Position numbers and translations under genes: made by a program
In this document: positions 1-20,000 of the stretch, in pieces
Layout: each line of letters begins with the position of its first letter
How positions within the stretch are numbered: the first letter of the stretch is position 1
Assembly (NCBI GenBank): GCA_009602735.1
Contig: WELA01001729.1
Span: 106,827-126,826 of the forward strand
Length of the DNA stretch: 20,000 nucleotides
DNA from: Mesotaenium endlicherianum
Taxonomy: Eukaryota
Direction: 5' to 3'
The notes under the pieces: generated by a model
The model's input: the letters and a program-made list of their open reading frames with translations, nothing else
The model's database searches: none
Told to the model about the DNA's origin: nothing

Positions 1-721
1 TGAAATGAATCGACTTATCAAATAGGCAATTAACAATTAATAAAGATCTTTATATCAGCAAGTAATCTTTATGGTATTTTTCGTTAACTGTTTTAACGGC
101 AAAAGGACAACGCACTAGCAGTGAATAATACTCGCCAGTCAAATGAGAGTAAACTAGCATCAATAATGCAAATCAGTAAACTCATACATAAGCAAGGTTA
201 GAAGACAGTGCGTAACAATGGCTTCTCGCCTTGGATTCAGATCTCTCTCAGTAAGCTGTACCAAAGAGTTGGCCTCGTTTCCGAATGCCGAACTCGAGAG
301 CAATGCCTAGCGTATGTACATGGAATGAGTTTACTGTTCAACGGTCAGTGCGATGGCACCGCCTACCCGGGAGTTAACCACGATGGTAGGACCTCGGTTA
401 ACCAAATCCACCGCCATCTCCCATCATCCCGAATAGCCATCCATCATAGGGATGTCATCTGGCCATTCATCTAGCATATCCTACTTAGGTGTATGTCAAG
501 GCAGTTCGCTGCTACCGAGTGCGGAGGTCAGCTGGCTGTCAAAGAATTGGTCAGCAAGCTGACTTATATAAACTTCAGCCTGCTGCTTCCGGCTGAGTCA
601 TTAAACTGATAAATATGTAAAGTCCAGCAGACTAAATATTAACTAAAGTTCAGTAGGCTGAACTTAATTAACTATTATATTTAAACGAATATTATATCTA
701 CTAATATACTGATTCTTTACA
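1..721 (-). repeat. LTR of family-1 chromovirus (solo LTR, or 5' LTR of an element extending left of the window)
   Basis: Starts TGAAATGAATC and ends GATTCTTTACA (TG...CA). Colinear along its full length with 2460-3178 and 10534-11284. Right flank is family-2 pol, with no PPT. Confidence 0.93.
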
Positions 722-2459
722 ATACTCGAGTTGGACTCAGCTGCTCCACCATCAGCAAACTCTGGGTCCTCCTCATAACCTCTCTGAAGCTTCTTCTTGA
801 AGTCCATACTCTCCTTGATGACCGAGACAGCTGCAAGGTCACACCTTCTGGATAAAGCATCTGCAGGGTTGATCTTCCCAGGTGATTACTCAATCTTGTG
901 GTCGAACTGTTGCAGAAACTCCATCCACCTTGCTTGTCTTGGTGTCAACGTTGGTTGCGTCATAAACTTCTCCAAGCTCTTGTGGTCGGTCTTGATGAAC
1001 ACCTTCCGGCCGTCCACATAACATCGCCAAATCCTCAAAGCTTGGATAATAGCCAACATCTCCCGCTCGTGTGCTGCATAGTTTTGCTCAGCAGGACTCA
1101 ACTTCTTGCTCTCATATGCTTCAGGCTGCAATCCTTTGCCCTGGTCTTGGAGAAGAATGGCTGCCACTGCAAAATTTGATGCGTCCGTGATGATGGTGAA
1201 AGGAAGCTCTAAACTTGCAATTGCCAACACGGGTGCCTATGTCAACAGCTTCTTAATCTTCTCGAAGGCTTGCTGCTCCTTGTCACCCCATAGCCACTTC
1301 TCCTGCTTCTTCAACATGTCCATGAGCGGTGCACACACCTTGGCAAATCCTTCAATGAAATGTCGATAATAATTCGCCATGCCGAGGAAACTCCTGAATT
1401 GATGAATATCAGCAGGCACCGGCCAATCTCTGACTGCTTGCATCTTCTTCTGCTCCACCTTGACTCCTTCGGCTTCCACTATATGTCCAAGAAATTCGAC
1501 TTCATTGAGACAGAAGTCGCACTTGCTCATCTTCCCATACAGCTTTTGATCTCTCAAGACCTCCAACATCTTCCTCAGATGCTCCACATGCTCTTCCAAG
1601 GTCTTTGAATAGATCAGGATGTCGTCCAAAAATAGCACCACAAACTGGTCCAAGTAGGGTCTGAAGATACTATTCATGAGTCCCATGAATGTTGCAAATG
1701 CATTAGTCAATCCAAAAGGCATGACCGTGAACTCAAATAAACCATAGCGAGTCCTGAAAGCAGTCTTCTGAACGCCTGCTTCCGCAATCCGTTCCTGGTG
1801 ATAGCCACTCCTCAAATCGATCTTCAAGAAATACTTCGCCCCGACAAGCCTGTCAATTAACTCGTCCACTCGTGGAAATGGGTACCTGTTCTTGATNNNN
1901 NNNNNNNNNNNNNNNNNNNNNNNNNNNNNNNNNNNNNNNNNNNNNNNNNNNNNNNNNNNNNNNNNNNNNNNNNNNNNNNNNNNNNNNNNNNNNNNNNNNN
2001 NNNNNNNNNNNNNNNNNNNNNNNNNNNNNNNNNNNNNNNNNNNNNNNNNNNNNNNNNNNNNNNNNNNNNNNNNNNNNNNNNNNNNNNNNNNNNNNNNNNN
2101 NNNNNNNNNNNNNNNNNNNNNNNNNNNNNNNNNNNNNNNNNNNNNNNNNNNNNNNNNNNNNNNNNNNNNNNNNNNNNNNNNNNNNNNNNNNNNNNNNNNN
2201 NNNNNNNNNNNNNNNNNNNNNNNNNNNNNNNNNNNNNNNNNNNNNNNNNNNNNNNNNNNNNNNNNNNNNNNNNNNNNNNNNNNNNNNNNNNNNNNNNNNN
2301 NNNNNNNNNNNNNCTTCTGAGCAAGGGGATCAGACACCACTACTTGCTCCTTCGGCGATGTACATTCGCCCAGGCTGTTAGGATTCACGCTTGTTCCATC
2401 TGATGACCTGGCCAGGGCCACCGAAACAAGGTACATCTCCTTCACCCGATTCGCCCTGC
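722..2459 (-). pseudogene. pol: Ty3/gypsy family-2 pol fragment (PR-RT linker, RT, RNase H), truncated at both ends by family-1 LTRs
   Basis: Motifs [56 protein letters not shown] and YAAHEREMLAI. In-frame stops at 1237-1239 (TAG) and 886-888 (TAA). Spans the N gap. Confidence 0.9.
1897..2313. other. Assembly gap (417 N)
   Basis: Run of N. Confidence 1.
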
Positions 2460-3178
2460 TGAAATGAATCGCCTTACCAAATAGGCGATTAACAATTAAT
2501 AAAGATCTTTATATCAGCAAGTAATCTTATAGTATTTCCGTTAATTAGTTAAACGGCAAAGGACAATACACTAGCAGGGAATAATACTCGTAAGTCAAAT
2601 GCGAGTAAACTAGCATCAATGATGCAAATCAGTAAACTCATACATAAGCAAGGTTAGAAGACAGTGCGTATCAATGGCTTCTCGCCTTGGATTCAGAGTT
2701 CTCTCAGTAAGCTGTACAAGAGAGTTGGCCTCGTTTCCGAATGCCGAACTCGAGAGCAATGCCTAGCATATGTACATGGAATGAGTTTACTGTTCAACGG
2801 TCAGTGCGATGGCACCGCCTACCCGGGAGTTAACCACGTTGGTAGGACCTCGGTTAATCAAATCCACCGCCCATCTCTTATCATCCCGAATAGCCATCCA
2901 TCATGGGGATGTCATCTGGCCATTCATCTAGCGGGTCGTACTTAGATGCATATCAAGGCAGTTCGCTGCTACCGAGCACGGAAGTCAGCTGGCTGTCAAA
3001 GAATGTGTCAGCAAGCTGACTTAAGTTGACTTCAGCCTGTTGCTTTCGGCCGAGGCATTCAACTGATAATTATGTAAAGTCCAGCAGACTGATTATTAAC
3101 TAAAGTTCAGCAGGCTGAACTGAATTAACTATTAGATTTAAATGAATATTATATCCACTAATATACTGATTCATTACA
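2460..3178 (-). repeat. 3' LTR (719 bp)
   Basis: TGAAATGAATC...GATTCATTACA, an 11-bp terminal inverted repeat with 1 mismatch. Abuts the PPT. Confidence 0.95.
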
Positions 3179-3193
3179 ATCCCTCCAACTTAA
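3179..3193 (-). promoter_or_regulatory. Polypurine tract (plus-strand primer site)
   Basis: Minus strand reads TTAAGTTGGAGGGAT immediately before the TGTAATG start of the 3' LTR. Confidence 0.8.
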
Positions 3194-3291
3194 CATGTTG
3201 TCGCCTCGACAACATTAAACTGCAGAAATTTTAAATAAGGGAGCTGAACCTGACCAGCCTTCCTTACTGACTGCCTCTTCAGCGTGTCACC

Positions 3292-4968
3292 TTAAGGGGT
3301 TGTTCCTGGGGCTTCAGGGTCAGGAGACGGAGAGCTGGACCTAGATCTGGACAGCCCTCTAGGTCTGTCAGCTGGCCTTCTAAAGAACCCTGTTTGCTCT
3401 AAAGTTGGCCCTCGAGGAGAACGGAGGATGGTGGCCTGCTCTTCAACTATTTGGGTGTTGATTCCCACATAGACAGGCATTCCAGTAGGATGCTGAAATA
3501 CATTGGCTAGAGGTACATGCCCCTGAGCGGAGGGGGAGGCTGGCATACTTCTGGCCCACCCGCGTGTCTCTCTTCCGGCACCCCTGTCCTCTGGGGATTT
3601 CTGTCTGTGTCTGCTGCCCAGTACCGTCAGATCAGCTTCTTCCCCTGCTTGGGCAGGTGGGCTGGGGGAGCGAGCGCGGGGTCCAGTTGTCGCCATAACG
3701 GGGATCACATTCCACACACCTGATCGTGGTTCTTTAGGAAGTGCCACTGCCTGTCCCTGGGTATCCTGAGTACCTGCTGCTGATGCTTCTCCTCTGCCTT
3801 GTTCTTCTTCCTCATCCTCCTCATCCTCCTCCTCGGAGAGAGTAGGGGTCTCGTCCACTAAGTCGTCCTGCTCCCTAGTAGACATGGAGTAGTCTACCGA
3901 CCTCCCTTTCTTAGGGCGCGCTGGAGGTTGCTTGGCCTTCAGCCTACTGATATCTATCCGGCCTGCATTCTTTGCCCATTTGACAAAGGCATGCTTTCCC
4001 TTAGAGAAGTACTCTCTTCCCCTCCTCCTATGTTCCTTGGTCTCTGCATTCATATTGCTCAGGCATCCATTCAGCCTGGGGTCCCAAGGGGCAATGTGAG
4101 GTGGTAGGATGAGATAGCCGTCTAGGCCATAGTGGAAGTCATCCGGTTGGGCTCGGTCACACTCCTGCTTCTTATTTGTGACGGTCATCCACCTCCAGTC
4201 TGTTGGCTGCTGGTAGTACTGGGGTCCGTGCTCAGCCTTCCTCAGTTTACACGGGAACCAGTGGGGAGAGAACATCTGCTGTCCTGCTTCCCTGGCCAAG
4301 TACTCCCAGCTCCTTCTCTCAACTTCATTGTAAGCTGGCAGGAGTGTGAGGTAGAATACCGTATCCTTATAGCTATCGGGCCGCAAACTCACCATCCGGA
4401 TGAGTCTCTGATCTCCCACTATTCTCGGTATGGGGACCGGCTTGTCCTCTGAATCATCTGCGAGATACCGGGCCTGCTCTGCTGTATAGCCCACCATCTT
4501 AGCATAATCTTCGTAAAGGACCACGCCGGTGTGTGTCTCGATGTACCTGTCCAGTGCTGTAGCTCCTTCCTTCTGTAGCAGTGTTGTCTGTTCCAGCCTG
4601 TTGATCTCCTGGGCTGCCAGCAATGCTTCCTTCAGGTTATCGAAGTTTTGGCCACCCACCACAGTATACCTGTAAGTGGCCAAGCTCTTCTGCCTGTCCG
4701 CTTCAATCTTTTTTCTTTTCTCCTCGTCTGCCGCTGCCGCTTCTTCTTGCTGTTTCTTCTGTCTCTCCTCCTCAGCCTTCCTGAGGTTTTCCGCTTCCTG
4801 ATTCTTCTTCCTCTGTGCCTCTTCTGCCGCCTCTTGTTGCTTGCGGACCCTTTCTTGTTCTCTCCTGGTGAGGGACGTCGCCGCCAGCTCCTTCTGGTAT
4901 TGCTCCATTGTCCTCCTGGCTTCTTCTGCCTTGCGCTTTCTGTCCTCCTTTTGTGTGGTGGGCGCCAT
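3292..4968 (-). CDS. Extra ORF3 (~558 aa) of unknown function: E/K/R/Q-rich helical N-terminus, ~240-aa aromatic-rich core, acidic tract, low-complexity R/S/P tail
   Basis: Uninterrupted 1.7-kb ORF between pol and the PPT, in the same sense as gag-pol. The ORF-track start at 4992 is TTG. ATG 4968 follows a splice acceptor; an alternative ATG lies at 4977. A homologous decayed copy at 13437-14880 differs mostly at synonymous sites. Confidence 0.85.
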   Translation of the reverse strand: MAPTTQKEDRKRKAEEARRTMEQYQKELAATSLTRREQERVRKQQEAAEEAQRKKNQEAENLRKAEEERQKKQQEEAAAADEEKRKKIEADRQKSLATYRYTVVGGQNFDNLKEALLAAQEINRLEQTTLLQKEGATALDRYIETHTGVVLYEDYAKMVGYTAEQARYLADDSEDKPVPIPRIVGDQRLIRMVSLRPDSYKDTVFYLTLLPAYNEVERRSWEYLAREAGQQMFSPHWFPCKLRKAEHGPQYYQQPTDWRWMTVTNKKQECDRAQPDDFHYGLDGYLILPPHIAPWDPRLNGCLSNMNAETKEHRRRGREYFSKGKHAFVKWAKNAGRIDISRLKAKQPPARPKKGRSVDYSMSTREQDDLVDETPTLSEEEDEEDEEEEQGRGEASAAGTQDTQGQAVALPKEPRSGVWNVIPVMATTGPRARSPSPPAQAGEEADLTVLGSRHRQKSPEDRGAGRETRGWARSMPASPSAQGHVPLANVFQHPTGMPVYVGINTQIVEEQATILRSPRGPTLEQTGFFRRPADRPRGLSRSRSSSPSPDPEAPGTTP

Positions 4969-4999
4969 CCTGCACATGTAACCAGGGCACAAGTTAGTA
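4969..4999 (-). promoter_or_regulatory. Putative branch point and 3' splice acceptor for ORF3 subgenomic mRNA
   Basis: Minus strand: TACTAAC(4999-4993)-TTGTGCCCTGGTTACATG-TGCAG|G-ATG. There is no other AG between the branch point and the acceptor. TACTAAC is kept in the relic copy (13427-13433). Confidence 0.65.
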
Positions 5000-5173
5000 G
5001 GATATGGACCTTTGTCATAGGGATTGCAGGAAGTATGTTAGTATTTAGTATAGTGGCTTCGCTGCTGTTTACCTTACAGGATGATTGCTAAAAGTTGACG
5101 TAGTTGCGATGCGCTACACATAAACGTATGAGTGTGTTTTTATCGCTCTCGCTCACTAACTGTCATATATTTT

Positions 5174-5187
5174 CCCCTCCAACTTAA
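5174..5187 (-). promoter_or_regulatory. Internal duplicate of the PPT just downstream of pol
   Basis: 13 nt (5175-5187) are identical to 3181-3193 (TTAAGTTGGAGGG). Also present in the relic at ~13140-13152. Confidence 0.65.
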
Positions 5188-5235
5188 ATGGAGACAGGAC
5201 CGCCTGTCACCTTCCCGTGTCAACTGAAATGACAG

Positions 5236-8200
5236 TTATGGAGGGACTCCAGCGGCCCGAAGGTGGAACCGTGTCAACGCCCCTTTGGCATTGGTCAAGT
5301 GGTCCTTAAACTCCCAAGTGTCCCCAGAGGCATCGTAACCCTTCCATCGAATGAGGTATTTCATGACATATTTAGACGATCGACGGACCGAGCGAGCGTC
5401 TAAAATCTCATCGACCTCATATTCCTCCGGGTCGCCGTCCCGGACAGCGGGGACCGGTCCCGGTTGGACAGGGAACCGACCTGTGAACAGTGTATCACCT
5501 TTGGTGTACGGTTCCAGGAAGGAGACATTAAAGACCGGGTGCCCATTGTATTCAGTTGACATGTTCAATTTGTAAGCATTCTGACCGACACGACGGACCA
5601 CCAAATATGGACCGACCTTGACAGGGCCAAGCTTTTTCTTGACCACACCAGGGAGGTACAGGTGCTGAGAATGCAGTTTGACTAAATCCCCCTTGGAAAA
5701 TGTCAGTTCCCGACGGTGTTGATTAGCGTATTTTTGTTGGTTTTCTTGGGCCGTGTGCAAGTTTCGTTGGACTTCTGACAGGGTGTCAGCAAACTCCTGA
5801 GTTAACTGGAGGGAGACCGGGTTGTCAATCCCTTCAGGGTGAGTTAAAGATTCCCCTAGCACATCTAGAGGAGACTTAGGGACTCTACCCAGGCTGAGTT
5901 CAAAAGGAGTTTTGCCCGTTGACGCGTGCACCGCACTGTTGACCGCAAACTGAATTTGAGGCAACAGGTCATCCCAATTATCTTGTTTTTGGTTAATATA
6001 TGCTCTCAGCACCTCCTGCAGAACTCGGTTAGTTCTTTCAGTCTGCCCATCAGTCTGAGGGTGGTTTGCTGTGCTGAGCAGCTGTTTGACTCCCATTAAC
6101 CCCATTAAAGCTCTCCAGAACTTAGAGGTGAATTTTGAGTCTCTGTCTGAGATGATATTAGAAGGGAGCCCATGTTGGCATACTACATGGTTGTAAAACT
6201 GTCTCGCTGTTTCGAGTGCAGTCACTTTGACAGTTGTGGGGATAAAAATGACCATTTTTGTCAGTTTATCCACGACTACCAGTATTGAATCATGCCCGTT
6301 GGCAGTTCTTGGTAGTGAGACCACCCAGTCCATGGATATAGTTTCCCAGCGTCCCGCTGGGATGGGTAGCGGTTGCAAGAGACCTCCGGGTGGTGTGTGC
6401 CGAGACTTATTTCTCTGACACTGGTCACAGGACTTGACATATTTCAAGACCTCCCGGGGTAACCCCTCCCAATGATAATGTTTTGCCAGTTTGCCAACAG
6501 TTTTGGCCTGCCCCAAATGTCCACCCAGGAGACTGTCATGAGCTTGACTCAGTAAGAGAGACCTTATTTCCAAGTTATTAGGAATGACCAGCTTCAGCCT
6601 GCCTGAAGTGGTTTCAGTCACCCAGACCCCTCCCTTGAGCTTATACCCGAGTGCAGTAGCACGACACACACCAGTAGTGGGGCTGGGCTCAAATGTTGGG
6701 TCAGAAAGGTAGGCTTTCCTAAGTTGTTCAAGGAAGGACTTTTTCACCTTTAGTGAAGTGAGTGCACACAGGACTTTATCTACAGCATGCTGACTAAAGT
6801 TCCTTTCTTGCAAGTCAGGTCTTCTAGAGAGTGCATCAGCAGGATTCAACTTCCCTGGTTTGTAGTCGATCTGGACTTGGAACTGCTCCAGCATCTGGCT
6901 CCAGCGGTTCTCCCTCCTCGACAGCTTGGACTTCTTCTGAAAGTGGGTCAGAGCTAGATGATCTGTAATCACCTTAAAAGCTTTACCATGTAAGTATGCT
7001 CTCCACTGTTTGAGTACATGAATGATAGCTAGCAGCTCTTTATCATGCACTGAGTAATTAATCTCCGCTGGATTAAATTTCATAGACTCATACAACACAG
7101 GATGCCACTCCTGCCGTACCTTACCATCCTTTGTGGTTTTGTCAGCAGGCTGCAACAAAATAGCACCCATGGCAAAATCAGAGGCATCAGTAACCACCTG
7201 CACCGGTTTGCTGGGGTCATACACGGCTAGCACTGGGGCAGAACAAAGGGCATCTTTAAGGGTCTGGAAGGCAGCCTGCTGCTCTTCCCCCCACACATAC
7301 CCGATGTCTTTCTTAGTAAGGTCAGTCAGTTTACTGGCCTTTGTGGAATAATTCTCAATAAATCTCCTATAGTAGTTAGCCAACCCGAGGAAGGATCTAA
7401 CTTCAGAGACAGACTGTGGTACTGGCCAGTCCCTTATGGTCTGGACTTTCTTAGGATCCACACTGATGCCCTCTTTACTGACAACGTGGCCTAAGAATTC
7501 AATACTTTCCTTAAAGAAATCACACTTGCTCATTTTAGCATACAAGTGATTTTTCCGCAGAGTGTCCAGCACTTTCTTTAAGTGTTCAGTGTGCTGAGCT
7601 TCATCTTTAGAGAAAATTAAAATATCATCCAGGAAAACTTGCACAAACTTATCCAAATAAGGTCTGAAAATGTCATTCATAGCACCCATAAAGGTAGCAG
7701 GAGCATTAGTCAGTCCAAATGGCATCACGTTGAACTCATAGTGTCCATAACGTGTGCGGAAAGCAGTCTTGTGTTCATCCCCCTCAGCAATTCTGATTTG
7801 ATGATAACCACTCTTGAGATCTATCTTACTGAACACCTTAGCGCCAGACAGGGTATCAAGCAAGTCCTCGATTCTGGGTAAAGCATACTTGTTCTTTACT
7901 GTAATTCTGTTCAGGGCTCTGTAATCCACACACATCCGCATACTGCCATCCTTTTTCTTAACAAATAGGATAGGTGCGCCGTACGGTGATTTACTGGGAG
8001 AAATGTAACCATTTTCCTCCAGCTCTGCAATCTGTGTTTTCAACTCCTCGCTCTCCAAATAAGACAAGCCATAAGTGCGTTGCCAGGGTGGCTGGCTACC
8101 AGGTAATAGATCAATCCTATGATCTACTTCCCTTTTAGGGGGTAGTCCTGGAGGCATGTTAAACACATCAGTGTACTGAGCAACAATTTTTGCAGCAGTA

Positions 8201-9045
8201 GGGTGCTCCGGAGGGCTTACCTTTTTCTCAACCACTTCTTCAGGTTGAGGAGGTACCTCTCTTAGCAGCAGACAGAACATTCTGTCTTCCTTCTGGTTCC
8301 AGCTTTTGACGAACTCCATTGCATTCAGCAACTTGCATCCTTCTGGAAGCCTCTTCTTTTCCTTCATTTGCCATCCACACAGGACAAGAGGAAGAGCACT
8401 GGTGGGTGCCAAGTCAGTCTGCCCATCACTGGCTCCTCTCACTTTAACTGTACCTCTGCTCCAACACACTTCAGCTTGATGTCTATTAAGCCAGGACCTG
8501 CCTAGCACGAGATCATAAAAGCCAGTGTTGAGTACCTCAAATGTAAGCGTTTCAGTTAGAACTGCAATGCCAGAACCTAACTGGACCTCAATAGGCTTGG
8601 TTATAACTCCTCCCGGGATACTTGAGGCATCTCCAAGGAATATTTTTCTATTCCCTTGGGTGACAGTAGGCAGCCTTAGCCGCTTAACTAAGTCCTTGTG
8701 GATAAAAGTATGTGACGCCCCTCCGTCAACAAATGCCCTCACCTTCCTACCTGCAATCATGCAATGCAGTAGGATAGGGGGGACTGTCTTTTCCTGACTT
8801 TCGCATTGTTCTCCTGACGTAGCAAAGAAATGTTGGACATCAGGTGGAACAAGAGCATCCAGAGTGTGCACTCTCTGGACGTCTATATTACTGATGGTCT
8901 CCTTTATCTGTTTGTCAGGCATGCATAGTGAATCCAGTTCAGCAGGACCCATAATACCTGCTACGAGGGCAGCTAGTGACGACTCACTATCTCTAGCATC
9001 CTCACAGTCAGTAGACTGGATTACTGACTGTTGCTGTCTTTTAAA
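5236..9045 (-). CDS. pol: Pol polyprotein: aspartic protease, reverse transcriptase, RNase H, integrase, chromodomain (in the -1 frame relative to gag; first ATG at 8952)
   Basis: [11 protein letters not shown]...[68 protein letters not shown]6-H...C-X2-[21 protein letters not shown] motif. The frame is open from 9066. Confidence 0.96.
5260..5427 (-). other. Integrase C-terminal chromodomain (canonical aromatic-cage type)
   Basis: [12 protein letters not shown]...[22 protein letters not shown] retains the Y, W and Y cage positions. Confidence 0.9.
9004..9045 (-). promoter_or_regulatory. Putative -1 programmed ribosomal frameshift signal (gag to pol)
   Basis: Heptamer T TTA AAA (9045-9039) in gag phase, 7-nt spacer, then perfect 10-bp stem ACAGTCAGTA/TACTGACTGT with 8-nt loop (9031-9004). 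Pol is in the -1 frame and overlaps gag here. Confidence 0.85.
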
Positions 9046-10499
9046 GGCTGGTCTTTTCTCTCGACCTTAGGCAGGTGCTTGACCGGACACTGTTCTCTGT
9101 AGTGGCCTTTCTGCTGACAATGGTAGCAAGTAGATTTTGCTGAGGCTGGTCTCGGCTTAGTCCTACCACCACCCCTTCCATAGCCACCTCGAGAGGGACC
9201 ACCTCTACCTCTAGACTGAATAGCATTGTACTCATACTCATATTCATCACCCTGATTATCCTCAGCCTGGTCTCCTTCAACTGCATTGTAGGAACCGTGG
9301 GGCTTTTTGACAATCTTAGACACCAAAGCGTTACTCTGGCGCTTGTGATTGAACTGCTGCTGATCCCAGGCGTCAGCATCCTGGATCAAGTCAGCCAGTT
9401 TCTCATACTTTTTCTCAGCAAAATGACCAGAGACCTCGGATTTCAAGCCATACCTGAAGTATGCTATCCTATACCGTTCTGGCAAATCAGGCTGCTTCAT
9501 CATGTTCTCTTGGAACTTTTGAGCAAACTCAGCAACTGAAGTGGTCTGCTTCAGTGTCAGGGAGATCATCGCATAGATAGCTTTCTCCTGCTGGTTGATG
9601 ACATCAAACTTCTCATGCAACTTCTCGACAAACTCTACCCACGTAGGGTCACCGAGTTGCCGAGCCTTACGCTCTTCCTTCCAGTAAAGCCACCAGTCTG
9701 CGGCACTGCCTTTCAGTAGCGCACCGGTGTGCCTGACCTTCTCGTAATCTTGCAGTTCTGGGTAGTTCTCCAGCCACTGCTCAACATCCGCGAGAAACTT
9801 GATCAGGTAATATTTTCTGTTTCCCTCAGGATCATAGTCCTGGGGAGGTTTCGGCTTGGGCTTACTAGGCCCTCGGCCACCACCACTAGTGGTGTGAGAC
9901 CCCAGTTGGTCTCTGTCCCGGAGTAGGGACATTATGATTCTTTTGTCCTCCTGCTGGGACTGATACATGGTCGCCATTTGCGACTGCATCTGAACGAACA
10001 ATGCTCCCAAGTCTACATTTTGGGGTGGTAGATTAGCAAATGCAGCAGCAGCATTGGCATCTACTCGCTGAGTAGTGTCCTCAACAATCCCTCTTGCTCC
10101 TGCAGCAGCAATTCCTGCCGCATTCAGCCGGTCACGTATTTGACCTAGGGGTACATTGAGTTGTACGGCAGGAGGTGGGTTCAGAACATTGGCCCTTGAT
10201 GCCATAAGTTCTTCAACAGTGCGCTCGTCAGCTGGCTGTCCTTCCCTCCTTTGTATATCTTCAGCGGCCTTTGCTACTTGTTCAGCTTCTAGTCTGGCTA
10301 TCTCCTCCTCAGCTTGCTGAGCTGCGACTGAGGCAATAGCAGCTGCCTCATCTGCAGCCTCCCTAGCTGCAGTATCCGCTACTGCTTCCGAATAGGTACG
10401 GTTTCCCGCTACATGGCTTTCCGCCTGGTTTTCGACATTCTCGTTATCCTGGTTCTCCATGTCTCGGGAGTTGCTAGTTTGAGACCTTGTCCTTACCAT
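9021..10499 (-). CDS. gag: Gag polyprotein (492 aa)
   Basis: Retrotransposon capsid-like region ([36 protein letters not shown]), an RGG-rich segment, and a CCHC knuckle [14 protein letters not shown]. Confidence 0.95.
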
Positions 10500-10520: not shown

Positions 10521-10532
10521 GCTCCGATACCA
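10521..10532 (-). promoter_or_regulatory. Primer-binding site, tRNA-iMet type
   Basis: Minus strand TGGTATCGGAGC, 1 nt after the CA of the 5' LTR. One difference from the canonical plant TGGTATCAGAGC. Confidence 0.9.
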
Positions 10533-10533
10533 C

Positions 10534-11284
10534 TGAAATGAATCGACTTACCAAATAGGCGATTAACAATTAATAAAGATCTTTATATCAGCAAGTAATC
10601 TTTATGGTAATTTCCGTTAACTGGTTAAACGGCAAAGGACAATACACTAGCAGTGAATAATACTCGTAAGTCAAATGCGAGTAAACTAGCATCAATAATG
10701 CAAATCAGTAAACTCATACATAAGCAAGGTTAGAAGACAGTGCGTATCAATGGCTTCTCGCCTTGGATTCAGATCTCTCTCAGTAAGCTGTACAAGAGAG
10801 TTGGCCTCGTTTCCGAATGCCGAACTCGAGAGCAATGCCTAGCATATGTACATGGAATGAGTTTACTGTTCAACGGTCAGTGCGATGGCACCGCCTACCC
10901 GGGAGTTAACCACGTTGGTAGGACCTCGGTTAACCAAATCCACCGCCATCTCCCATCATCCCGAATAGCCATCCATCATGGGGATGTCATCTGGCCATTC
11001 ATCTAGCAGGTCGTACTTAGATGCATATCAAGGCAGTTCGCTGCTACCGAGCACGGAAGTCAGCTGGCTGTCAAAGAATGTGTCAGCAAGCTGACTTAAG
11101 TTGACTTCAGCCTGTTGCGTTCGGCCGAGTCATTAAACTGATAATTATGTAAAGTCCAGCAGACTGACTATTAACTAAAGTAAAGTCCAGCAGACTGACT
11201 ATTAACTAAAGTTCAGCAGGCTGATCTTAATTAACTATTATATTTAAATGAATATTATATCCACTAATATACTGATTCATTACA
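10534..11284 (-). repeat. 5' LTR (751 bp)
   Basis: TG...CA direct repeat of 2460-3178, adjacent to the PBS. Contains a private 31-bp tandem duplication. Confidence 0.95.
11149..11212. repeat. 31-bp perfect tandem duplication in the U3 part of the 5' LTR
   Basis: TAAAGTCCAGCAGACTGACTATTAACTAAAG x2. Single copy in the other two LTRs. Confidence 0.95.
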
Positions 11285-13090
11285 CCTATGCTTTCTTGTT
11301 CTTGCTGTGTATGACTCCAGTAAACCTGTGCAGGTGGTTACTGACGTTTTTTACTTTGCCATGGGTGCTATTTTGTTACAACCTGCTGACAAACCACAAA
11401 GGATTTTTTATTTAGTGCATGATAAGAAGCTGTTGGCAATTATTAATGTCCTCAAACAGTGGAGAGCACACTTACATGATAAGGCTTTCAAGGTGTCAAC
11501 AGAAATCTGGCTCTGACTCATTTTTTAGTGGAATTCCAAGCTGTCGAGGAGGGAGGATTGCTGGAGCTAGATGCTGGAGCAGAACCAAATCCAGATCGAC
11601 TACAAACCAGGGAAGTTGAATCCTGCTGATGCACTCTCTAAAAGACCTGACCTGCAAGAAAGGAACTCTAATCAGCATGCTGTAGATAAAGTTATTGGTA
11701 ATCACGTCACTTAAGGTGAAAAATCCCTTATCTTGAATAACTTAGAAAAGCCTAGTTTTCTAGCCCAACATTTGAGCCCAGCCAAACAGTTGGTGTGTGT
11801 CCCGCTACTTCACTCGGTTGTAGGCTGAAAAGAGGGGTCTGGGTAATTAAACTTAGGAAGGCTCAAGTAGGTGATTCCTAATAACTTGGAATTAAGGTCT
11901 TTATTCCTTAGTCACGCTCATGACAGTTTACTGGGTGGACATTTGGGGCAGGCCAAAATTGTGGGCATATTGGCAAACTTTACCACTGGGAAGGGTTGCC
12001 TCGAGAGGTCTTTAAATATGTTAGGTCCTGTGATCCTCGTCAAATAATTAAGTCTAGACACACACCATCCGGGGGGCTATTGCAACCACTATCTATCCCA
12101 GCTGGACGATGAGACACCATATCCATGGACTGGGTGATAACACTACCAAGAACTGCCAATGGGCATGATTCTATACTGGTAATAGTGGATAAATTGACAA
12201 AAATGGTCATTTTCATCCTCACAATTGTCAAGGTGACTGCACTCAAAACTGCGAGACAGTTGTATAACCATCTTTGCCAATATGGATTACTCTCCAATAT
12301 CATCTCAGACAGAGACTCAAAGTTTACCTCCAAGTCCTGAAGAGCCTTAATGGGGTTGATGGGAGTCAAACAATTGCTCAGCACAACAAACCACCCTTAC
12401 ACTGCTGTGCAAACTAAAAGAACTAATCAAATTTTGCAGGAGGTGCCGAGAACTTATATTAATACAAGATAATTGGGATGACTTGAAATTGAATTTGCGG
12501 TTAACAATGCGGTGCATGCGTCAACGGGAAAGACTCCTTTTGAACTCCGTCTGGGTAGGGTCCCTAAGTCTCCTTTAGATGTGGTAGAGGAGTCTTTAAC
12601 TCATCCTTAGAAGATTGACAATCCGGTGTTTCTCCAGTCAACTCAGGAATTTGCTGACCCCCTGTTTGAAGTCCAGCAGAACTTGTACAAAGCACAAGAA
12701 ACCCAATTAAAATATGCCAATCAACACCATCGGGAGCTGACATTGTCTAAGGACGATTTGGTCAAACTGCTTTCTCAACACCCGTACCTGCCTGGTGTGG
12801 TCAAGAAAAAGCTGGGGCCAGTCTGGATGGGTCCATACTTGGTGGTACGCCAAGTTGGTCAGAATGCTTACAAACTGCACATGTCAGCGGAATATAAGGG
12901 TCACTCCGTCTTTAATGTCTCTTTTCTAGAACCATACATCAAGGGTGACACAGTGTTCACAGGTCGGTTACCTGTGCAACCAAAACCAGTCCCCGCTATT
13001 GGAGACACTTGGGAATACAAAGACCATTTGGTCAACGCAAAAGGGGCGTTGAAATGTTTCTATGTCTAGGAAGCCGATAGACCACCTTAA
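11285..13090 (+). pseudogene. pol: Decayed family-1 pol (RNase H-integrase; chromodomain core deleted)
   Basis: Fragments [31 protein letters not shown] and KKKLGPVWMGPYLV match the intact pol. Many stops, frameshifts and deletions; PVPAI joins directly to GDTWE. Confidence 0.92.
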
Positions 13091-13436
13091 CTGCCATTTC
13101 AATAGACATGGGAAGGTGACAGGGCGGTTGTTTCTCCATTTAAGTTGGAGGGAAATGTGACAGTTAAGTGTCACCATAGTGACAGATGTGACAACCAGGC
13201 CCACCTTGAGCAAAGTTGGAGGGTGTCCACCACTTGGAAGGAGGGAGGGACCAGTACATGAACAAATCACTCAACTCACCCTGCACACACATACCTTCGT
13301 TTATTCTCATCACGCTACAGCTCAATTAACTCCTAGTACCCACTCTGTAGAATAAGGGAACAACTCTGCTGTAATAATACAAACTTACTCCTCTTTCTGC
13401 ATCTATTGTGACAATGAATGATATCCTACTAACTTG

Positions 13437-14880
13437 CTGCGGAGGAAGAAAGAAAGAAGGAGGAAGCTAAAAGGCAGAAGAGCGTGGCCACTTACAGATA
13501 TACTGTGGTGGATGGCCAAATCTTTGATAATGTGAAGGAGACACTACTGGCAGTCCAGGATATTAATCGAATTGCCAAGCAAACAGTGTTGCGGAAGCAG
13601 GGAGCTGAAGCTCGGGATAGGTATATTGAGACACGCACTGGGGTTGTCCTCTACAAAGATTATGCCAAGATGGTGGGGTATATAGCGGAGCAGGCGCGGT
13701 TCTTTGCTGATAACTTGGAAGATAAGCCAGTACCAGTACCTGGCATAGTGGAGGATCAGTGGCTCATCGAAATGGTGAGCATGCAGCCCGATGGCTTTAA
13801 CGATGTCTTGTTTTCCCAGACGTTGCTGCCAGCCTACAATGAAGTTGAGAGAAGGAGCTGGGAGTACTTGGCCAAGAAAACACGACAGCAGATGTTCTCT
13901 CCCCATGTTCCCTTGTAAGCTGAAAAATGCTAAACATGGGCCACAATACTACCAGCAACCTACAAACTGGAGGTGGATGATCGTCCCTAACAGGAAGCAG
14001 CACTGTGAACGGGCCCACCCGGATGATTTCCACTATGGGCTGGACGGTTAGCTTATCCTGCCACCTCACATTGCTCTTTGGGACTTCAGGCTTAATGGAT
14101 GCCCGAGTAACATGAATGAGAAAACCAAGGAGAACAAGAGGAGAGGACAGGACTACTTCTCTAAGGGGAAGTATGCCTTTGTTAAATGGGCAAAGAATGC
14201 AGGCTGGATAGATATCAGCAAGTTGAAGGCCAAGCAACCCCCAGCTCATCCTAACAAAGGGGGGTCACTAGATTTCTCCATGTCTACCAGGGAGCAGGAT
14301 AACTTGGTAGATGAGACCCCTACCCTCTCTGAGGAGAAGGATGAGGAGGATGAGGAGGATGAGGAAGCGGAACAGGGCAGGGGAGAAGCATAAACCTCTG
14401 GAGCTCAAGAGATCCGGGGACAGGCAGAGGCAGGAACTCCTAGGGGGCCAAGAGCAGGAGGAAGGACTGTGACTCCTACTGTGGAGACAACGGTACCTCG
14501 AGCTCGATCTCCCGGCCCACCTGCCCAAGCAAAGGAAGAGGCAGAGCTGACTGTACTTGGTAGCAGAGAGAGGCAGAAATCCCCAGAGGACAGAGCTCCT
14601 AGAAGTGGAACTCGCGGTGTGGCCAGAGGTATGCTAGCCACCCCCTCCAGTCAGGGATGTGTGCCCCTTGCCAATGTATTTTAGCATCCTACTGGTTTGC
14701 CTGTCTATGTGGGAATCAACATCCAGGAGGTTGAAGAGCAGGCTGCAATCCTCCGTTCCCCTTGTGGCCCCACTTTAGAGCAGACAGGGTTCTTCAGGAG
14801 GCCAGTCGACAGAACTAGAGGGATGTCCAGGTCTAGGTCCAGATCTCAGTCCCCTGATCCTGGAGCCCCAAGAACATCAT
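13437..14880 (+). pseudogene. Decayed copy of ORF3 (N-terminus deleted)
   Basis: ATYRYTVV, LLPAYNEVERRSWEYLA, HGPQYYQQPT, PDDFHYGLDG, AFVKWAKNAG and GPTLEQTGFFRRP match 3292-4968. Frameshift at ~13905 and stops at 14049, 14391 and 14682. Confidence 0.9.
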
Positions 14881-15009
14881 TTGAAACCATCCTCCGGTCA
14901 AGCCTTGCTGGGGGTCTCTCTGTTTGCTCTCCGCAAAGGTAGTGGACTGAGGGTGGAGGTGACAGTTTACTGCCATTAGTGATCCCCATAGTGATCTCCA
15001 TAACAGTGT

Positions 15010-16265
15010 TGAAACTGGCTGACTTGATCCAGGATGCTGATGCCTAGGATCAGCAGCAGTTCAATCACAAGCGCCAGAGTAATGCTTTGGTGTCTAAGAT
15101 TGTCAAAAAGCCATATGGTTCCTACAATGCAATTGAAGGAGATCAGGCTGAGGACGATGAGAGTAATGAGTACAAATATGAATATAATGCTATGCTGTCT
15201 AGAAGGAGAGGTGGACACTCTCGAGGTGGTTATGGAAGAGGTGGTGGCATGACTAAGCCGAGACCAGCCTCAGCAAAACCTATTTGCTACCATTTCCAGA
15301 AGTTTGGCCACTACAGAGAGCAGTGTCCTAGCAAGCACCTTCCAAAGGTCAAGAGAAAAGATCAGTCCTCAAAAGATAGCAACAGTCAGTAATTCAGATT
15401 ATTGACACTGAAAATGCTAGAGATAGTGAGTCGTCACTAGCTTCCCTCGTAGCAGGTATTATGGGTCCTGCTAAATTGGATTTACTATGCATGCTTGGCA
15501 AATAGATAAAGGAGACTTTCAACAATATAGATTCCCAGAGAGTGCAAACTCTGGATGATCTTGTGTTACCTGATGTCCAACATTTCTTTGCTAAGTCAAG
15601 AGAACATTGCGAAAGTCAGGAAAAGTCAGATTCCCTATCCTACTGCATTGTATGATTGCAGGTAGGAAGGTGAGGGCATTTGTTGACGGAGGGGCGTCAT
15701 ATACTTTTATCCATAAGGACTAAGTTAAGCGGCTAAGGCTGCCTACTGTCACCCAAGGGAACAGAAAAATATTCCTTGAACATGCCTCAAGTATCTCAGG
15801 AGGAGTTATAACCAAGCCTATTGGGGTTCGGATAGGTTTTGGCATTGCGGTCTAACTGAAACGCTTACATTTGACGTACTCAACACTGGGTTTTATGATC
15901 TTGTGCTAGGCAAGTTTTGGCTTAACAGACATCAAGTCAAAATGTGTTGGAGCAGAGGTACAGTTGAACTGAGAGGAGCCAGTGATTGGCAGACTAACTT
16001 GGCACCCACCAGTACTCTTCCTCTTGTCCTGTATGGATGGCAAACGAAGGAAAAGGAGAGGCTTCCAGAAGGATGCAAATTGCTGAATGCAATGGAGTTC
16101 ATCGAAAGTTGGAACCAGAAGGAAGACATAATGTTCTGTCTGCTGCTAAAAGAGGTACCTCCTCAACCTGAAGAAGTGGTTGAGAAAAAAGATAAGCCCT
16201 CTAGAGCTCTCTACTGTTGCAAAAATTGTTGCTCAGTGTATGATGTTTTTAATATGCCTCCAGGA
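15010..16265 (+). pseudogene. Decayed family-1 gag C-terminus, protease and linker
   Basis: [17 protein letters not shown], degenerate knuckle CYHFQKFGHYREQC, FVDGGAS and WSRGTV match 9400-8150 of the intact element. Multiple stops. Confidence 0.9.
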
Positions 16266-16278
16266 TTGCTCCAGGATT

Positions 16279-16370
16279 GGCAAAGGTTTTAAGGTAATTA
16301 CAGATTATCTAGCTCTAACTCACGTTAAGAAGAAGTCCAACCTGTTGAGGAGGAAGACTCGCTGGAGCCA
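16279..16370 (+). pseudogene. Family-1 RNase H fragment
   Basis: GKGFKVITDYLALTHVKKKSNLLRRKTRWS versus [30 protein letters not shown] in the intact pol. Confidence 0.85.
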
Positions 16371-16655
16371 TGTAGTGATACAGATAGATAAAATACTTAG
16401 TAAAACAGAATACTTTATCTATTCAAGACAAGGATCTTTGAACACAAGTGGTAGCTTCTTGAAAGAGAGATGGCTTCTTGAAACTTAATATATTTCTGCA
16501 TTTTGGCAAGTACAAGAGTGATTCTCCAATGTCTTTCTATGTTCTTGCTCTTGTTTATTTACTTGCTAAATAAGCAACTTCTAGGAAGGTGTATGTTGAT
16601 GTGTTGGCACCCAACACATCCCAAAACTTGCCACCTCTTTCTAGAATAATGTACA
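16371..16655 (+). repeat. Repeat X copy 1 (TGTAGT-starting, AT-rich; probable LTR end of a third family)
   Basis: Near-identical to 17308-17592. Begins with TG abruptly within RNase H sequence. Confidence 0.75.
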
Positions 16656-16659
16656 ATAA

Positions 16660-17264
16660 TGTGTGATTTCTTCAAGGAAAGTATTGAATTCTTGGAGCAC
16701 GTTGTCAGTAAGGAAGACATCAATGTGGGTCCTAAGAAAGTCCTGACCAAAAGGGACTGGCCAGTGCCACAGTCTGTCTCGAAAAATTAGATCCTTCCTC
16801 GGGTTGGCTAAATTCATTGAGAATTATTTTACAAAGGCCAGTAAACTGACTGACCTTTCTAAGATGGACATAGGGTATGCGTGGGGGGAAGAGCAGCAAG
16901 CTACCTTCCAGATCCTTAAAGATGCTCTTTGTTTTGCCTTAGTCCTAGCCGTGTATGACCCCAGCAAACCTGTGCAGGTGGTTACTAATGCTACTAACTT
17001 TGCTATGGGTGCTATTTTGTTGCAGCTTGTTGACAAAACCACAAAGGATGAAGATAAAGCGGGAGTGACACCTTGTGCTGCACGTGTCTATGCAATTCAA
17101 TCCAGCTAAGATCAATTTTTCTATTCATAATAAAGAGCTGCTGGCTATCATTCATGTTCTCAAACAATGGAGAGCATTCTTACATGACAAAGTTTTTAAC
17201 GTAATTACAGCTTATCTACCTCTAACTCAAGTTAAGAAGAAGTCCAAGCTGTTGAGGAGGAAGC
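16660..17264 (+). pseudogene. Decayed family-1 RT C-terminus to RNase H
   Basis: [40 protein letters not shown] and [17 protein letters not shown]. Contains frameshifts and a deletion. Confidence 0.88.
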
Positions 17265-17307
17265 GACAACGGACGCATCGTGACAAGACCTTTTCGAAAA
17301 GTCCTAG

Positions 17308-17670
17308 TGTAGTGAAACAGATAGATAAAGTACTTAGTAAAACAGAATACTTTATCAATTCAAGACAAGGATCTTTGAACACAAGTGGTAGCTTCTTGAA
17401 AGAGAGATGGCTTCTTGAAAATTAATACATTTCTGGATTTTGGCAAGTACAAGAGTGATTCTCCAATGGCTTTCTATGTTCTAGCTCTTGTTTATATACT
17501 TGCTAAATAAGTAGCTTCTAGGTAGGTGTATGTTGATGTGTTGGCACCCAACACATCCCAAAACTTGCCACCTCTTTCTAGAATAATGTACACATGTCCT
17601 TTTGACCTAAAAATGGCACATCTGACTTTTGCCACATGGAGTTCTTCTAGGTCTTTCCTCTAACTTCGAA
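17308..17670 (+). repeat. Repeat X copy 2
   Basis: Starts TGTAGTGAAACAGATAG. Direct repeat of 16371-16655 and inverted repeat of 17980-18233. Confidence 0.8.
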
Positions 17671-17979: not shown

Positions 17980-18233
17980 ATTCGAGGGTAGAGGAAGGAC
18001 CTAGAAGAACTCCTAGAAAGTTCCTAGAAGTTACTTATTTAGCAAGTATATAAACAAGAGCTAGTACATAGAAAGACATTGGAGAATCACTCTTGTACTT
18101 GTCAAAATCCAGAAATGTATTAACTTTCAAGAAGCCATCTCTCTTTCAAGAAGCTACCACTTGTGTTCAAAGATCCTTGTCTTGAATAAAGTATTCAATT
18201 TCACTAAGTACTTCGTCTATCTGTTTTACTACA
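17980..18233 (-). repeat. Repeat X copy 3 (inverted)
   Basis: Reverse complement begins TGTAGTAAAACAGATAG and matches 17308-17522, then 17638-17670. Confidence 0.8.
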
Positions 18234-18841: not shown

Positions 18842-19106
18842 TGTGAAAGGGGCAAAGTGCCCTAGTGGAAGCGTAGTAACTCACGAGGAAAAAAACTAGT
18901 TGCAATCATGTCAAAGAGTGCAGCGGCACATCACTAAGAAAACTTAGGAAAAATACTCAACATTTGAGTAACAAGAAACTGCTCACAAATGTACTAGGAT
19001 GAAAGGCCTTGTCATTACAAACCCGTAGAAATTTACAGAAGTGAAACTTGATAAGAAACAAGGAAGTTATGCCTATTTATAATTTTCTGCCTAAGTGCTC
19101 CTCCCT

Positions 19107-20000
19107 AGAGAAGAATGGCTCCCACTGCAAAATTTGATGCGTCCGTAATGATGGTAAAAGGAAGCTCTGGACTTGCAATTGCCAACACAGGTGCCTGTGT
19201 CAACAGCTCCTTAATCTTCTCAAATGCTTGCTGCTCCTTGTTACCCCATAGCCACTTCTCCTGCTTCTTCAACATGTCCGTCAGCGGTGCACATACCTTG
19301 GCAAATCCTTCAATGAAACGTCGATAATATTTCGCCATGCCGAGGAAACTCCTGAGTTGATGAATTTTAGCAGGTACCGGCCAATCTCTGACTCCTTGCA
19401 CCTTCTTCTGCTCCACCTTGACTCCTTCGGCTCCCACTATGTGCCCAAGAAACTCAACCTCCTTGAGACAGAAGTTGCACTTGCTCATCTTCCCATAAAC
19501 TTCTGATCTCTCAAGACCTCCAACATCTTCCTCAGATGCTCCACATGCTCTTCCAAGGTCTTTGAATAGATCAGGATGTCGTCCAAAAATAGCACCACAA
19601 ACTGGTCCAAGTAGGGTCTGAAGATACTATGTATGAGTCCCATGAATGTTGCAGGTGCATTAGTCAATCCAAAAGGCATGACCGTGAACTCAAATAAACC
19701 ATAGCGAGTCCTGAAAGCAGTCTTCTGAACGTCTGCTTCCGCAATCCGTACCTGGTGATAGCCACTCCTCAAATCGATCTTCAAGAAATACTTCGCCCCG
19801 ACAAGCCTGTCAATTAACTCGTCCACTCGTGGAAGTGGGTACCTGTTCTTGATGGTGACCTTGTTCAGCGCCCGGTAGTTGACACACATCCTCATAGTCC
19901 CATCCTTCTTCTTCACAAATAAGACTGGTGCTGCAAATGGAGACTCGCTGGGTCGGATGAATCCCTTCTCCAACAACTCTGTCAGCTGCTTCTTCAACTC
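19107..20000 (-). pseudogene. pol: Ty3/gypsy family-2 RT to start of RNase H (second copy; runs off the window)
   Basis: [31 protein letters not shown] and TDASNFAVGAILL. 1-nt deletion frameshift near 19500. Highly similar to 1150-1896. Confidence 0.92.

What the first reader, a model, noticed from the sequence alone, without database searches (positions are those of the whole stretch)
3292..4968. Chromovirus carrying an intact third gene in the env position that is not an envelope protein
Seen: a ~558-aa sense ORF fills the space between pol and the PPT. It has no hydrophobic signal peptide or TM segment, a ~95-aa E/K/R/Q-rich helical N-terminus, an aromatic-rich core of ~240 aa that I cannot assign to any family, basic NLS-like patches (RKRK, RPKKGR), an acidic tract, and an RS/SP tail. 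Known: chromoviruses typically encode only gag-pol. 3' extra ORFs are mainly described in errantiviruses (env), Athila and SIRE (env-like) and Tat/Ogre/Retand. Inference: this is a soluble, possibly nuclear accessory protein (for example an anti-silencing, RNA-processing/export or targeting factor) that defines an undescribed three-gene chromovirus lineage.
Basis: partly seen in the sequence, partly recalled or inferred. Interest (0 to 1): 0.9.

Follow-up and report, generated by a model that had tools for sequence, protein, structure and literature searches.

The report
Orphan third gene in a chromovirus
A Gypsy-type jumping gene, likely from a non-seed plant or green alga, carries after gag and pol an intact third gene that selection has kept, with no membrane segment and no detectable relative; it likely makes a nuclear helper protein from a spliced RNA, but neither its expression nor its job has been shown.

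Summary
Observation confirmed. A complete chromovirus lies on the minus strand (LTRs 10534-11284 and 2460-3178; gag; pol with chromodomain) with an open 558-codon sense ORF at 4968-3292. It is a real element gene. Against a decayed second copy dN/dS is 0.22 (integrase 0.23; neutral null 0.79), 11 of 14 listed family polymorphisms are synonymous, and contigs of five organism labels cover it. It is not env: no hydrophobic segment, sequon or furin-type site. No homologue in any library that answered; both folds failed. A TACTAAC branch-like motif (kept in copy 2) and TGCAG|G acceptor precede the ATG, a GTAAGT donor lies in U5, and the PPT is duplicated around the ORF. Three polyA runs gave no read on it. 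Best guess: a spliced, nuclear, CERV/Rev-like RNA factor (0.35); rival VANC-like DNA binder (0.25). The layout is not unprecedented: REXdb lists sense 3' extra ORFs in 18% of Tekay chromoviruses, though none in Chlamyvir, Tcn1, Galadriel, Reina or CRM. This scan noted similar unrelated third genes in other genomes. Verdict: new variant of a known kind.

The parts
10534..11284 (-). 5' LTR (TG...CA), 751 nt
   Evidence: 97.4% identical to the 3' LTR over ungapped columns, plus a 32-nt tandem duplication
10546..10551 (-). candidate splice donor TTG|GTAAGT in U5, upstream of the PBS (predicted, untested)
   Evidence: family reads carry the GTAAGT letter at the equivalent 3' LTR place 2472
10521..10532 (-). 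primer binding site TGGTATCGGAGC, plant initiator tRNA-Met type (assignment recalled)
9021..10499 (-). gag, 492 aa (Ty3 capsid, CCHC knuckle)
9004..9045 (-). predicted -1 frameshift signal: TTTAAAA heptamer and a 10-bp hairpin 7 nt downstream
   Evidence: z -2.47; 3 of 200 shuffles fold as well
5236..8952 (-). pol (PR-RT-RH-INT-SH3-chromodomain), frame open upstream into the gag overlap
5263..5421 (-). chromodomain with Y, W, Y at the aromatic-cage positions (group I type, read by eye)
5175..5185 (-). internal duplicate of the polypurine tract (PPT1)
   Evidence: also in copy 2 at 13142-13152
5161..5276 (.). cluster of five TGACA motifs around PPT1
   Evidence: P 0.036 in this copy, 0.002 in copy 2; motif chosen after seeing it
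4970..5072 (-). candidate 103-nt intron or 3' splice region: local donor AAG|GTAAAC at 5072, TACTAAC at 4999-4993, acceptor TGCAG|G ending at 4970 (predicted, untested)
   Evidence: a 16-nt exact match around TACTAAC is kept in copy 2
3292..4968 (-). ORF3, 558 aa: charged helical N-terminus (1-95), conserved core (96-345), acidic tract, disordered S/P/R tail
3181..3191 (-). LTR-adjacent polypurine tract (PPT2)
2460..3178 (-). 3' LTR, 719 nt
13442..14876 (+). decayed second copy of ORF3 from a diverged subfamily (about 79% DNA identity): first ~80 codons and acceptor missing, one frameshift, three stops
11402..13166 (+). decayed INT-chromodomain and PPT1 of the second copy, directly upstream of its ORF3

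Best explanation
ORF3 is an intact, selection-kept third gene of a chromovirus, without a membrane segment, that is likely translated from a spliced subgenomic RNA into a likely nuclear protein which would help the element's own unspliced RNA leave the nucleus, in the manner of CERV or Rev. Shown: the gene, its place, purifying selection, presence across the family, absence of envelope features. Inferred from sequence: a donor (U5 at 10551, or local at 5072) joins the acceptor at 4970, so that ATG 4968 is the start; the full-length RNA, which must stay unspliced to make Gag and frameshifted Gag-Pol, would then be an intron-retaining RNA in need of an export aid. Inferred by analogy only: the basic patches act as NLS or RNA-binding motifs, the charged helix as spacer or oligomeriser, and the RS/SP tail contacts splicing or export factors under phosphorylation control. 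The wider class 'nuclear trans-acting helper of the element's expression' I put at about 0.6; this specific mechanism at 0.35.
For: Selection: dN/dS 0.217 (95% bootstrap 0.156-0.28, 469 codons), core 0.183, tail 0.257, against INT-CHD 0.228; shifted frames 1.70 and 1.39; neutral null mean 0.79, minimum 0.48 of 1000. Of 26 ORF3 variants listed, those varying among family copies are 11 synonymous and 3 non-synonymous, those private to this copy 3 and 9 (split made by eye), so selection acted on the copies that multiplied. No listed variant is a stop and no indel was listed. Splice signals: TGCAG|G ATG is the first AG after TACTAAC; the longest exact match between the two diverged spacers is the 16-mer holding TACTAAC (local score 35, best of 500 shuffles 30). 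Precedent: CERV is a 517-aa nuclear protein from a spliced Cer1 mRNA, with a basic NLS candidate and coiled-coil, required for genomic RNA export (PMC10309623).
Against: No read covers 3253-5149 in three polyA runs (6-12% of each read) and no joint uses the predicted sites, while 222, 303 and 186 reads fell on LTR, gag and pol, mostly at 90-99% identity. No sequence or fold similarity to CERV, Rev or any RNA-binding family was found; CERV itself was not compared directly. The strong ATG|GTAAGG donor at the gag start would give an out-of-frame product. TACTAAC occurs twice in the spacer, and donor-like sites are common (16 scored 5 of 7 or better between 5072 and 10551). Simple retroviruses export unspliced RNA with cis elements and need no such protein (PMC12786077 passages). 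The acceptor is deleted in copy 2, so only the branch-like motif could be compared.
Confidence: 0.35

Rival explanations
1. ORF3 is a VANC-like or Tas-like sequence-specific DNA binder that protects or activates its own family by binding short motifs in the element's non-coding parts, such as the TGACA cluster around PPT1, perhaps from its own internal promoter with a 103-nt 5' UTR intron.
For: TGACA is the commonest 5-mer in both spacers (5 in 116 nt; 5 in 77 nt), and a third spacer variant in three runs is a tandem of the same motif (loose end at 5174). VANC targets form tandem repeats that differ between related elements (PMC5735166 abstract). Acidic tract and basic patches fit a nuclear activator. 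The best-predicted part of the model is a small hairpin-helix at core residues 7-30 (pLDDT about 50-54), resembling DNA-binding modules by recall only. Grande's accessory gene is nuclear with its own promoter (PMC7264820).
Against: TGACA is enriched over the whole window (77 against 54 expected) and the motif was picked after inspection; it may be a host factor site or LTR-end relic. No hit to VANC, AP2 or NUMOD families even for the isolated fragment. The family looks silent and CpG-depleted (observed/expected 0.40-0.48 in the coding parts).
Confidence: 0.25
2. ORF3 is a particle or integration-complex cofactor (nuclear import, or a tether that works with the chromodomain in target choice), possibly also made as a Gag-ORF3 splice fusion.
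For: Basic patches; an in-frame donor-like site CAG|GTATGG at 9453 would fuse the capsid part of Gag to ORF3. Nested insertions into other retroelements in this window fit targeting.
Against: One in three donors is in frame by chance; no chromatin-reader domain found; the chromodomain is intact and could suffice.
Confidence: 0.15
3. ORF3 is an env substitute or plant movement protein for cell-to-cell spread.
For: Env position and env-like splice layout; non-fusogenic roles at plasmodesmata have been proposed for plant env-like ORFs (PMC7264820).
Against: No hydrophobic segment, sequon or furin-type site; no movement-protein family hit.
Confidence: 0.08
4. ORF3 is a captured host or other-transposon gene carried as a passenger, its low dN/dS inherited from before capture.
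For: The PPT on both sides of the cassette and its higher GC3 (0.575 against 0.50 and 0.49) suggest a discrete acquisition. No host genome could be searched.
Against: Synonymous bias holds between two subfamilies that both carry ORF3 behind the same PPT1 (dS 0.66) and among current family variants. No homologue among 1.84 billion representatives.
Confidence: 0.07

Closest known systems
Sense extra ORFs 3' of pol in plant Ty3/gypsy elements (eORF-3'F, aORF-3S), including Tekay chromoviruses (REXdb, PMC6317226; PMC7264820)
   Same: Sense ORF over 250 codons between pol and 3' LTR, kept in most copies, no known domain. REXdb table: 18% of 782 Tekay elements.
   Different: This pol falls outside the angiosperm group in a small tree and has an aromatic-cage chromodomain; REXdb shows no eORF for Chlamyvir, Tcn1, Galadriel, Reina, CRM or unclassified chromoviruses. 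No TM segment. Direct comparison with REXdb eORF proteins was not possible (files too large).
CERV of C. elegans Cer1 (PMC10309623)
   Same: Similar size (517 aa), non-envelope, basic NLS-like patch, helical module, no recognisable homologue, spliced mRNA (shown there, predicted here).
   Different: CERV shares exons with gag and has a Cys-rich loop and G-protein-like domain; ORF3 is a stand-alone 3' ORF with three Cys in all. No homology shown.
Fungal chromoviruses with 'add. ORF' of unknown function (PMC2864245, figure legend) and Boty antisense aORF (PMC7264820)
   Same: Chromodomain-type gypsy element with an extra ORF of unknown function.
   Different: Position, strand and sequence of the 'add. 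ORF' could not be seen (figure not held); Boty's is antisense.
Errantivirus and retrovirus env; Athila, SIRE and Bagy2 env-like genes
   Same: gag, overlapping pol, third sense ORF before the PPT with an upstream acceptor.
   Different: No signal peptide, TM helix, sequon or furin-type site.
VANC anti-silencing proteins of VANDAL DNA transposons (PMC5735166); Tekay 5' aORF of sunflower (PMC11728184)
   Same: Element-encoded accessory proteins, predicted or shown nuclear, family-specific.
   Different: Different element class or position; no sequence similarity detected.

Membership tests
Ty3/gypsy chromovirus | pol order PR-RT-RH-INT between two LTRs with PBS and PPT | tested here: met
Ty3/gypsy chromovirus | chromodomain at the integrase C-terminus | tested here: met
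   PF00385 E 2e-08, above cut-off
Ty3/gypsy chromovirus | RT/RH/INT phylogeny within the chromovirus lineage (chromodomains also occur in unrelated gypsy lineages) | tested here: inconclusive
   best hits carry PF00385 and include green-algal and angiosperm proteins; tree had no curated references
Tekay clade | seed-plant clade, chromodomain without aromatic cage, mostly single gag-pol ORF | tested here: not met
   Y, W, Y present by eye; gag and pol in overlapping frames; outside the angiosperm cluster (REXdb)
Tcn1 clade | self-priming PBS (83% in REXdb) | tested here: not met
   tRNA-Met-type PBS; overlapping gag/pol and cage residues do fit Tcn1
Chlamyvir clade | algal clade by RT/RH/INT tree; tRNA PBS; gag and pol mostly split by one stop | tested here: inconclusive
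   PBS and cage fit; frameshift layout does not; no support for grouping with the two Haematococcus proteins
env / env-like | signal peptide and TM helix | tested here: not met
   maximum 19-residue hydropathy 0.73; SignalP and DeepTMHMM not available
env / env-like | N-glycosylation sequons and furin-type cleavage site | tested here: not met
   none of either pattern
env / env-like | spliced subgenomic mRNA | tested here: inconclusive
   signals present; no reads on ORF3
eORF-3'F / aORF-3S (positional class) | sense ORF of 250 codons or more between pol and 3' LTR, separate from the polyprotein | tested here: met
Described eORF domain families (ATHILA ORF-1, Transposase_28, PMD, DUF390 and others) | profile match | tested here: not met
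   no such Pfam hit; list
CERV/Rev-like export factor | nuclear location and requirement for genomic RNA export | not testable with these tools
   needs bench work
CERV/Rev-like export factor | sequence or fold homology to CERV | not tested
   CERV was not fetched; general searches gave no hit; models unusable
VANC-like anti-silencing factor | sequence-specific binding to element non-coding motifs with loss of methylation | not testable with these tools
   only a motif cluster was seen

The most novel reading that the evidence does not exclude
This is a 'complex' chromovirus of an early-diverging green plant lineage: like foamy or lentiviruses it has a frameshifted gag-pol, a duplicated polypurine tract and a separately spliced regulatory gene, and that gene encodes a protein of a new fold that exports the element's unspliced RNA or shields it from silencing. 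It would be, in the papers searched here, the first Rev/Tas-like regulator of a plant chromovirus.
Probability: 0.3. Interest if true: 0.8.

Novelty: new variant of a known kind. Interest (0 to 1): 0.5.

Why it matters
Extra ORFs of plant LTR retrotransposons are common and almost all without a known function (PMC6317226, PMC7264820). This one is intact, constrained about as strongly as integrase between two subfamilies, clearly not a membrane protein, and comes with precise predicted splice sites and a candidate DNA motif. That makes it a clean test case for how a plant retroelement gets unspliced RNA out of the nucleus or escapes silencing. It extends three-gene architecture to a deep chromovirus group for which REXdb lists none. 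If it proves a mere passenger, it is one more orphan eORF.

Tried and rejected
Homology, all blank for the ORF3 core: word-indexed search of 5.8 billion proteins, 0 of 3756 candidates at E<=0.001 (near lengths only); HMMER over 1.84 billion representatives, 0; Pfam, PHROGs, NCBIfam only sub-cut-off hits such as Obc1_C (best E 6e-4 on an 88-aa piece, 19 bits against cut-off 27) and DUF6462, rejected; PDB sequence search best E 0.69 (HNF6), rejected; phage tblastn none; metagenome, viral and prokaryote contigs 0 of 68, 0 of 6, 0 of 36 pattern matches confirmed. These collections hold little eukaryotic repeat sequence: the gag search was blank too (0 of 1715), so the blanks are weak evidence of novelty. 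The ESM Atlas gave no answer. AlphaFold2 gave mean pLDDT 33.9 and 34.8; the Foldseek run on the second model had no E<=0.001 match and is meaningless at that confidence. Synteny route: 11 loci with related pol show no tblastn match to ORF3 and no 3' ORF of 250 codons or more; most end near pol. No RNA holder was listed by the run search. Rfam: one chance hit. Stop read-through from pol rejected (other frame, stops in spacer). Splicing from the gag ATG donor rejected as out of frame. An antisense gene rejected (9-23 stops per frame). An ORF3-less form joining PPT1 to the LTR was not among the 15 best-supported joints shown of 40. LTR dating not attempted: flanks are not a target-site duplication. 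Steinbauerova et al. 2011 is not held.

Full report
Anatomy. The window holds a full-length Ty3/gypsy element on the minus strand: 5' LTR 11284-10534, PBS 10532-10521, gag 10499-9021, pol 8952-5236, ORF3 4968-3292, PPT 3191-3181, 3' LTR 3178-2460. Pfam confirms capsid and knuckle in gag and PR, RT, RH, INT, SH3 and Chromo in pol. gag and pol overlap in different frames; a TTTAAAA heptamer with a 10-bp hairpin 7 nt downstream predicts a -1 frameshift. The LTRs are 97.4% identical over ungapped columns, but the flanks are not a target-site duplication, so I give no age. No host genome is held. The PBS is of the plant initiator tRNA-Met type (recalled), the chromodomain has aromatic residues at the three cage positions (by eye), which among plants REXdb finds only outside seed plants, and the best full-length pol matches are unnamed environmental proteins at up to 50% identity, with Closterium and Haematococcus proteins at 43-44%. 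A non-seed plant or green alga is therefore the likely host. This is inference. A 63-sequence RT-RH tree without curated references left the element outside the angiosperm cluster and otherwise unplaced.

Is ORF3 real? Yes. The frame is far longer than chance (581 codons against at most 312 in 2000 resamples). A decayed second copy on the plus strand carries ORF3 at the same place behind INT-chromodomain and PPT1. Between the copies dN/dS is 0.217 (0.156-0.28) over 469 codons, 0.183 in the core and 0.257 in the tail, with dS 0.66. INT-CHD gives 0.228, the gag end 0.242, RT/RH 0.363 and the protease piece 0.686. The neutral null for this estimator averages 0.79, minimum 0.48 of 1000. Since copy 2 has decayed since insertion, these ratios probably overstate the value under selection. 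Public runs: 20 of 24 listed runs, from 7 studies and five organism labels, hold 59-80% of the sampled words (one may be the window's own source). Contigs of four DNA runs cover all 30 bins across the ORF, and a fifth run has one contig spanning 3757-5232. Of the 40 variant rows shown (93 not shown), 26 lie in ORF3: 14 vary among family copies (11 synonymous, 3 not) and 12 are private to this copy (3 synonymous, 9 not); none is a stop (the split was made by eye). That pattern says the copies that multiplied kept the protein, while this copy has begun to drift.

What is the protein? It is not an envelope: no hydrophobic segment, no sequon, no furin-type site. It has a charged helical N-terminus, a 250-residue core with normal globular composition, an acidic tract and a disordered S/P/R tail with one conserved island. 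Every sequence search that answered was blank or below cut-off, and both structure predictions failed. The blank for gag as well shows these libraries sample this lineage poorly, so absence of homologues is weak proof of a new fold.

How would it be expressed? pol stops 267 nt upstream in another frame, so read-through is excluded. The ATG sits one base after TGCAG|G, the first AG after TACTAAC at 4999-4993. The 16 nt around that motif are the longest exact match between the two otherwise diverged spacers. Two donors are plausible: AAG|GTAAAC at 5072 (103-nt intron after an internal promoter) or TTG|GTAAGT at 10551 in U5, upstream of the PBS, which would give an env-style subgenomic RNA without the gag start. 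The donor at the gag ATG gives an out-of-frame product. None of this was seen in RNA: three polyA runs labelled with the same species as the best DNA holder, 6-12% of each read, put 222, 303 and 186 reads on the stretch, only 4, 6 and 5 of them at 99% or better, and none on 3253-5149. So young copies look silent in those samples and ORF3 expression is unshown; low-level sense-type reads on gag without any on ORF3 count slightly against a constitutive ORF3 mRNA.

Mechanism. I commit to a spliced, nuclear, trans-acting helper, most likely an export factor for the unspliced genomic RNA (0.35), by analogy with CERV of Cer1 (PMC10309623: abstract and section 9 read). The lead to CERV came from an earlier scan note. 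The main rival is a VANC-like DNA binder (0.25; PMC5735166, abstract only), prompted by five TGACA motifs around PPT1 in both copies, a post hoc observation. Integration cofactor (0.15), movement protein (0.08) and passenger (0.07) follow; about 0.1 is left for something else.

Known context. REXdb (PMC6317226: passages and supplementary files 4 and 5 read) lists eORF-3'F in 18% of Tekay chromoviruses and none in Chlamyvir, Tcn1, Galadriel, Reina, CRM or unclassified ones. The Athila row of that table disagrees with file 4 on strand, so the exact column is uncertain, but all four Tekay cells are filled. Files 1 and 3, which hold the elements and sequences, were too large to read and could contain a relative. 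A sunflower study describes chromovirus aORFs as 5' (PMC11728184 passages). Novikova 2010 marks an 'add. ORF' in a figure legend (PMC2864245 passages). The review PMC7264820 (parts 1-2 of 3) covers sense and antisense 3' aORFs; PMC12786077 (passages) says aORFs occur in most lineages; PMC5408684 and PMC11963269 (abstracts) show other non-env third genes; PMC3350952 (passages) describes spikemoss chromoviruses without such a gene; PMC12477816 (passages) warns that chromodomains arose in other gypsy lineages too. Seven searches aimed at extra ORFs in chromoviruses or non-seed plants and algae (listings only, apart from the papers named) showed no description of this family; most subscription papers are not covered. 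Earlier scan notes report unrelated third genes in fungal and other gypsy elements, and none on this sequence or genome.

Verdict. The three-gene layout is a known kind, even among chromoviruses, but this protein and this deep clade are undescribed in what I could search. New variant of a known kind; interest 0.5.

Noticed in passing
window 5175-5185 and 3181-3191; 13142-13152 and 13213-13223: The polypurine tract is duplicated on both sides of the ORF3 cassette, and copy 2 has a further copy in its spacer. It may be a second plus-strand primer or the scar of cassette capture; in copy 2 it is followed by TG, like an old LTR start.
   Followed up: partly
window 2452-2459 and 11285-11292: The flanks are not a target-site duplication (ATAGG against GCAGG) and belong to different elements, so this copy may be a recombinant or an assembly join; an N gap lies at about 1897-2333.
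   Followed up: partly
window 1-721: A third LTR of the same family (92-94% identical) inserted in the pol of another gypsy family; its U5 donor-like site is mutated.
   Followed up: partly
window 722-1896, 2334-2459 and 19105-20000: Pieces of a second Ty3/gypsy family; its RT is 69% identical in protein to this pol over 164 residues.
   Followed up: partly
window 9004-9045: Textbook-looking -1 frameshift signal between gag and pol (slippery heptamer plus 10-bp hairpin).
   Followed up: partly
window 11285-17270: The plus-strand relative is scrambled: RH-INT-CHD, ORF3, then gag end, protease and RT/RH pieces; the protease piece has dN/dS 0.69 at low dS, so it may come from a younger copy.
   Followed up: partly
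window 16278-16655, 17185-17592, 18021-18233: A repeat of about 215-400 nt in two direct copies and one inverted part-copy, inserted in pol fragments; possibly another LTR or a MITE.
   Followed up: no
window 3218, 5139, 5174 (loose ends): Several runs hold subfamilies that share pol end or PPT-LTR but differ in the spacer or 3' non-coding part; whether each has ORF3 could not be seen.
   Followed up: partly
window 2460, 3178, 10431, 6989-7149: The RNA reads come mostly from diverged copies running into other sequence; one GT..AG joint of 159 nt on the plus strand (3 reads, one run) points to an antisense host-type transcript spliced within pol.
   Followed up: no
window 3400-3540 (ORF3 residues 481-520): A short hydrophobic, conserved island within the disordered tail, possibly a binding motif; no Pfam hit.
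   Followed up: partly
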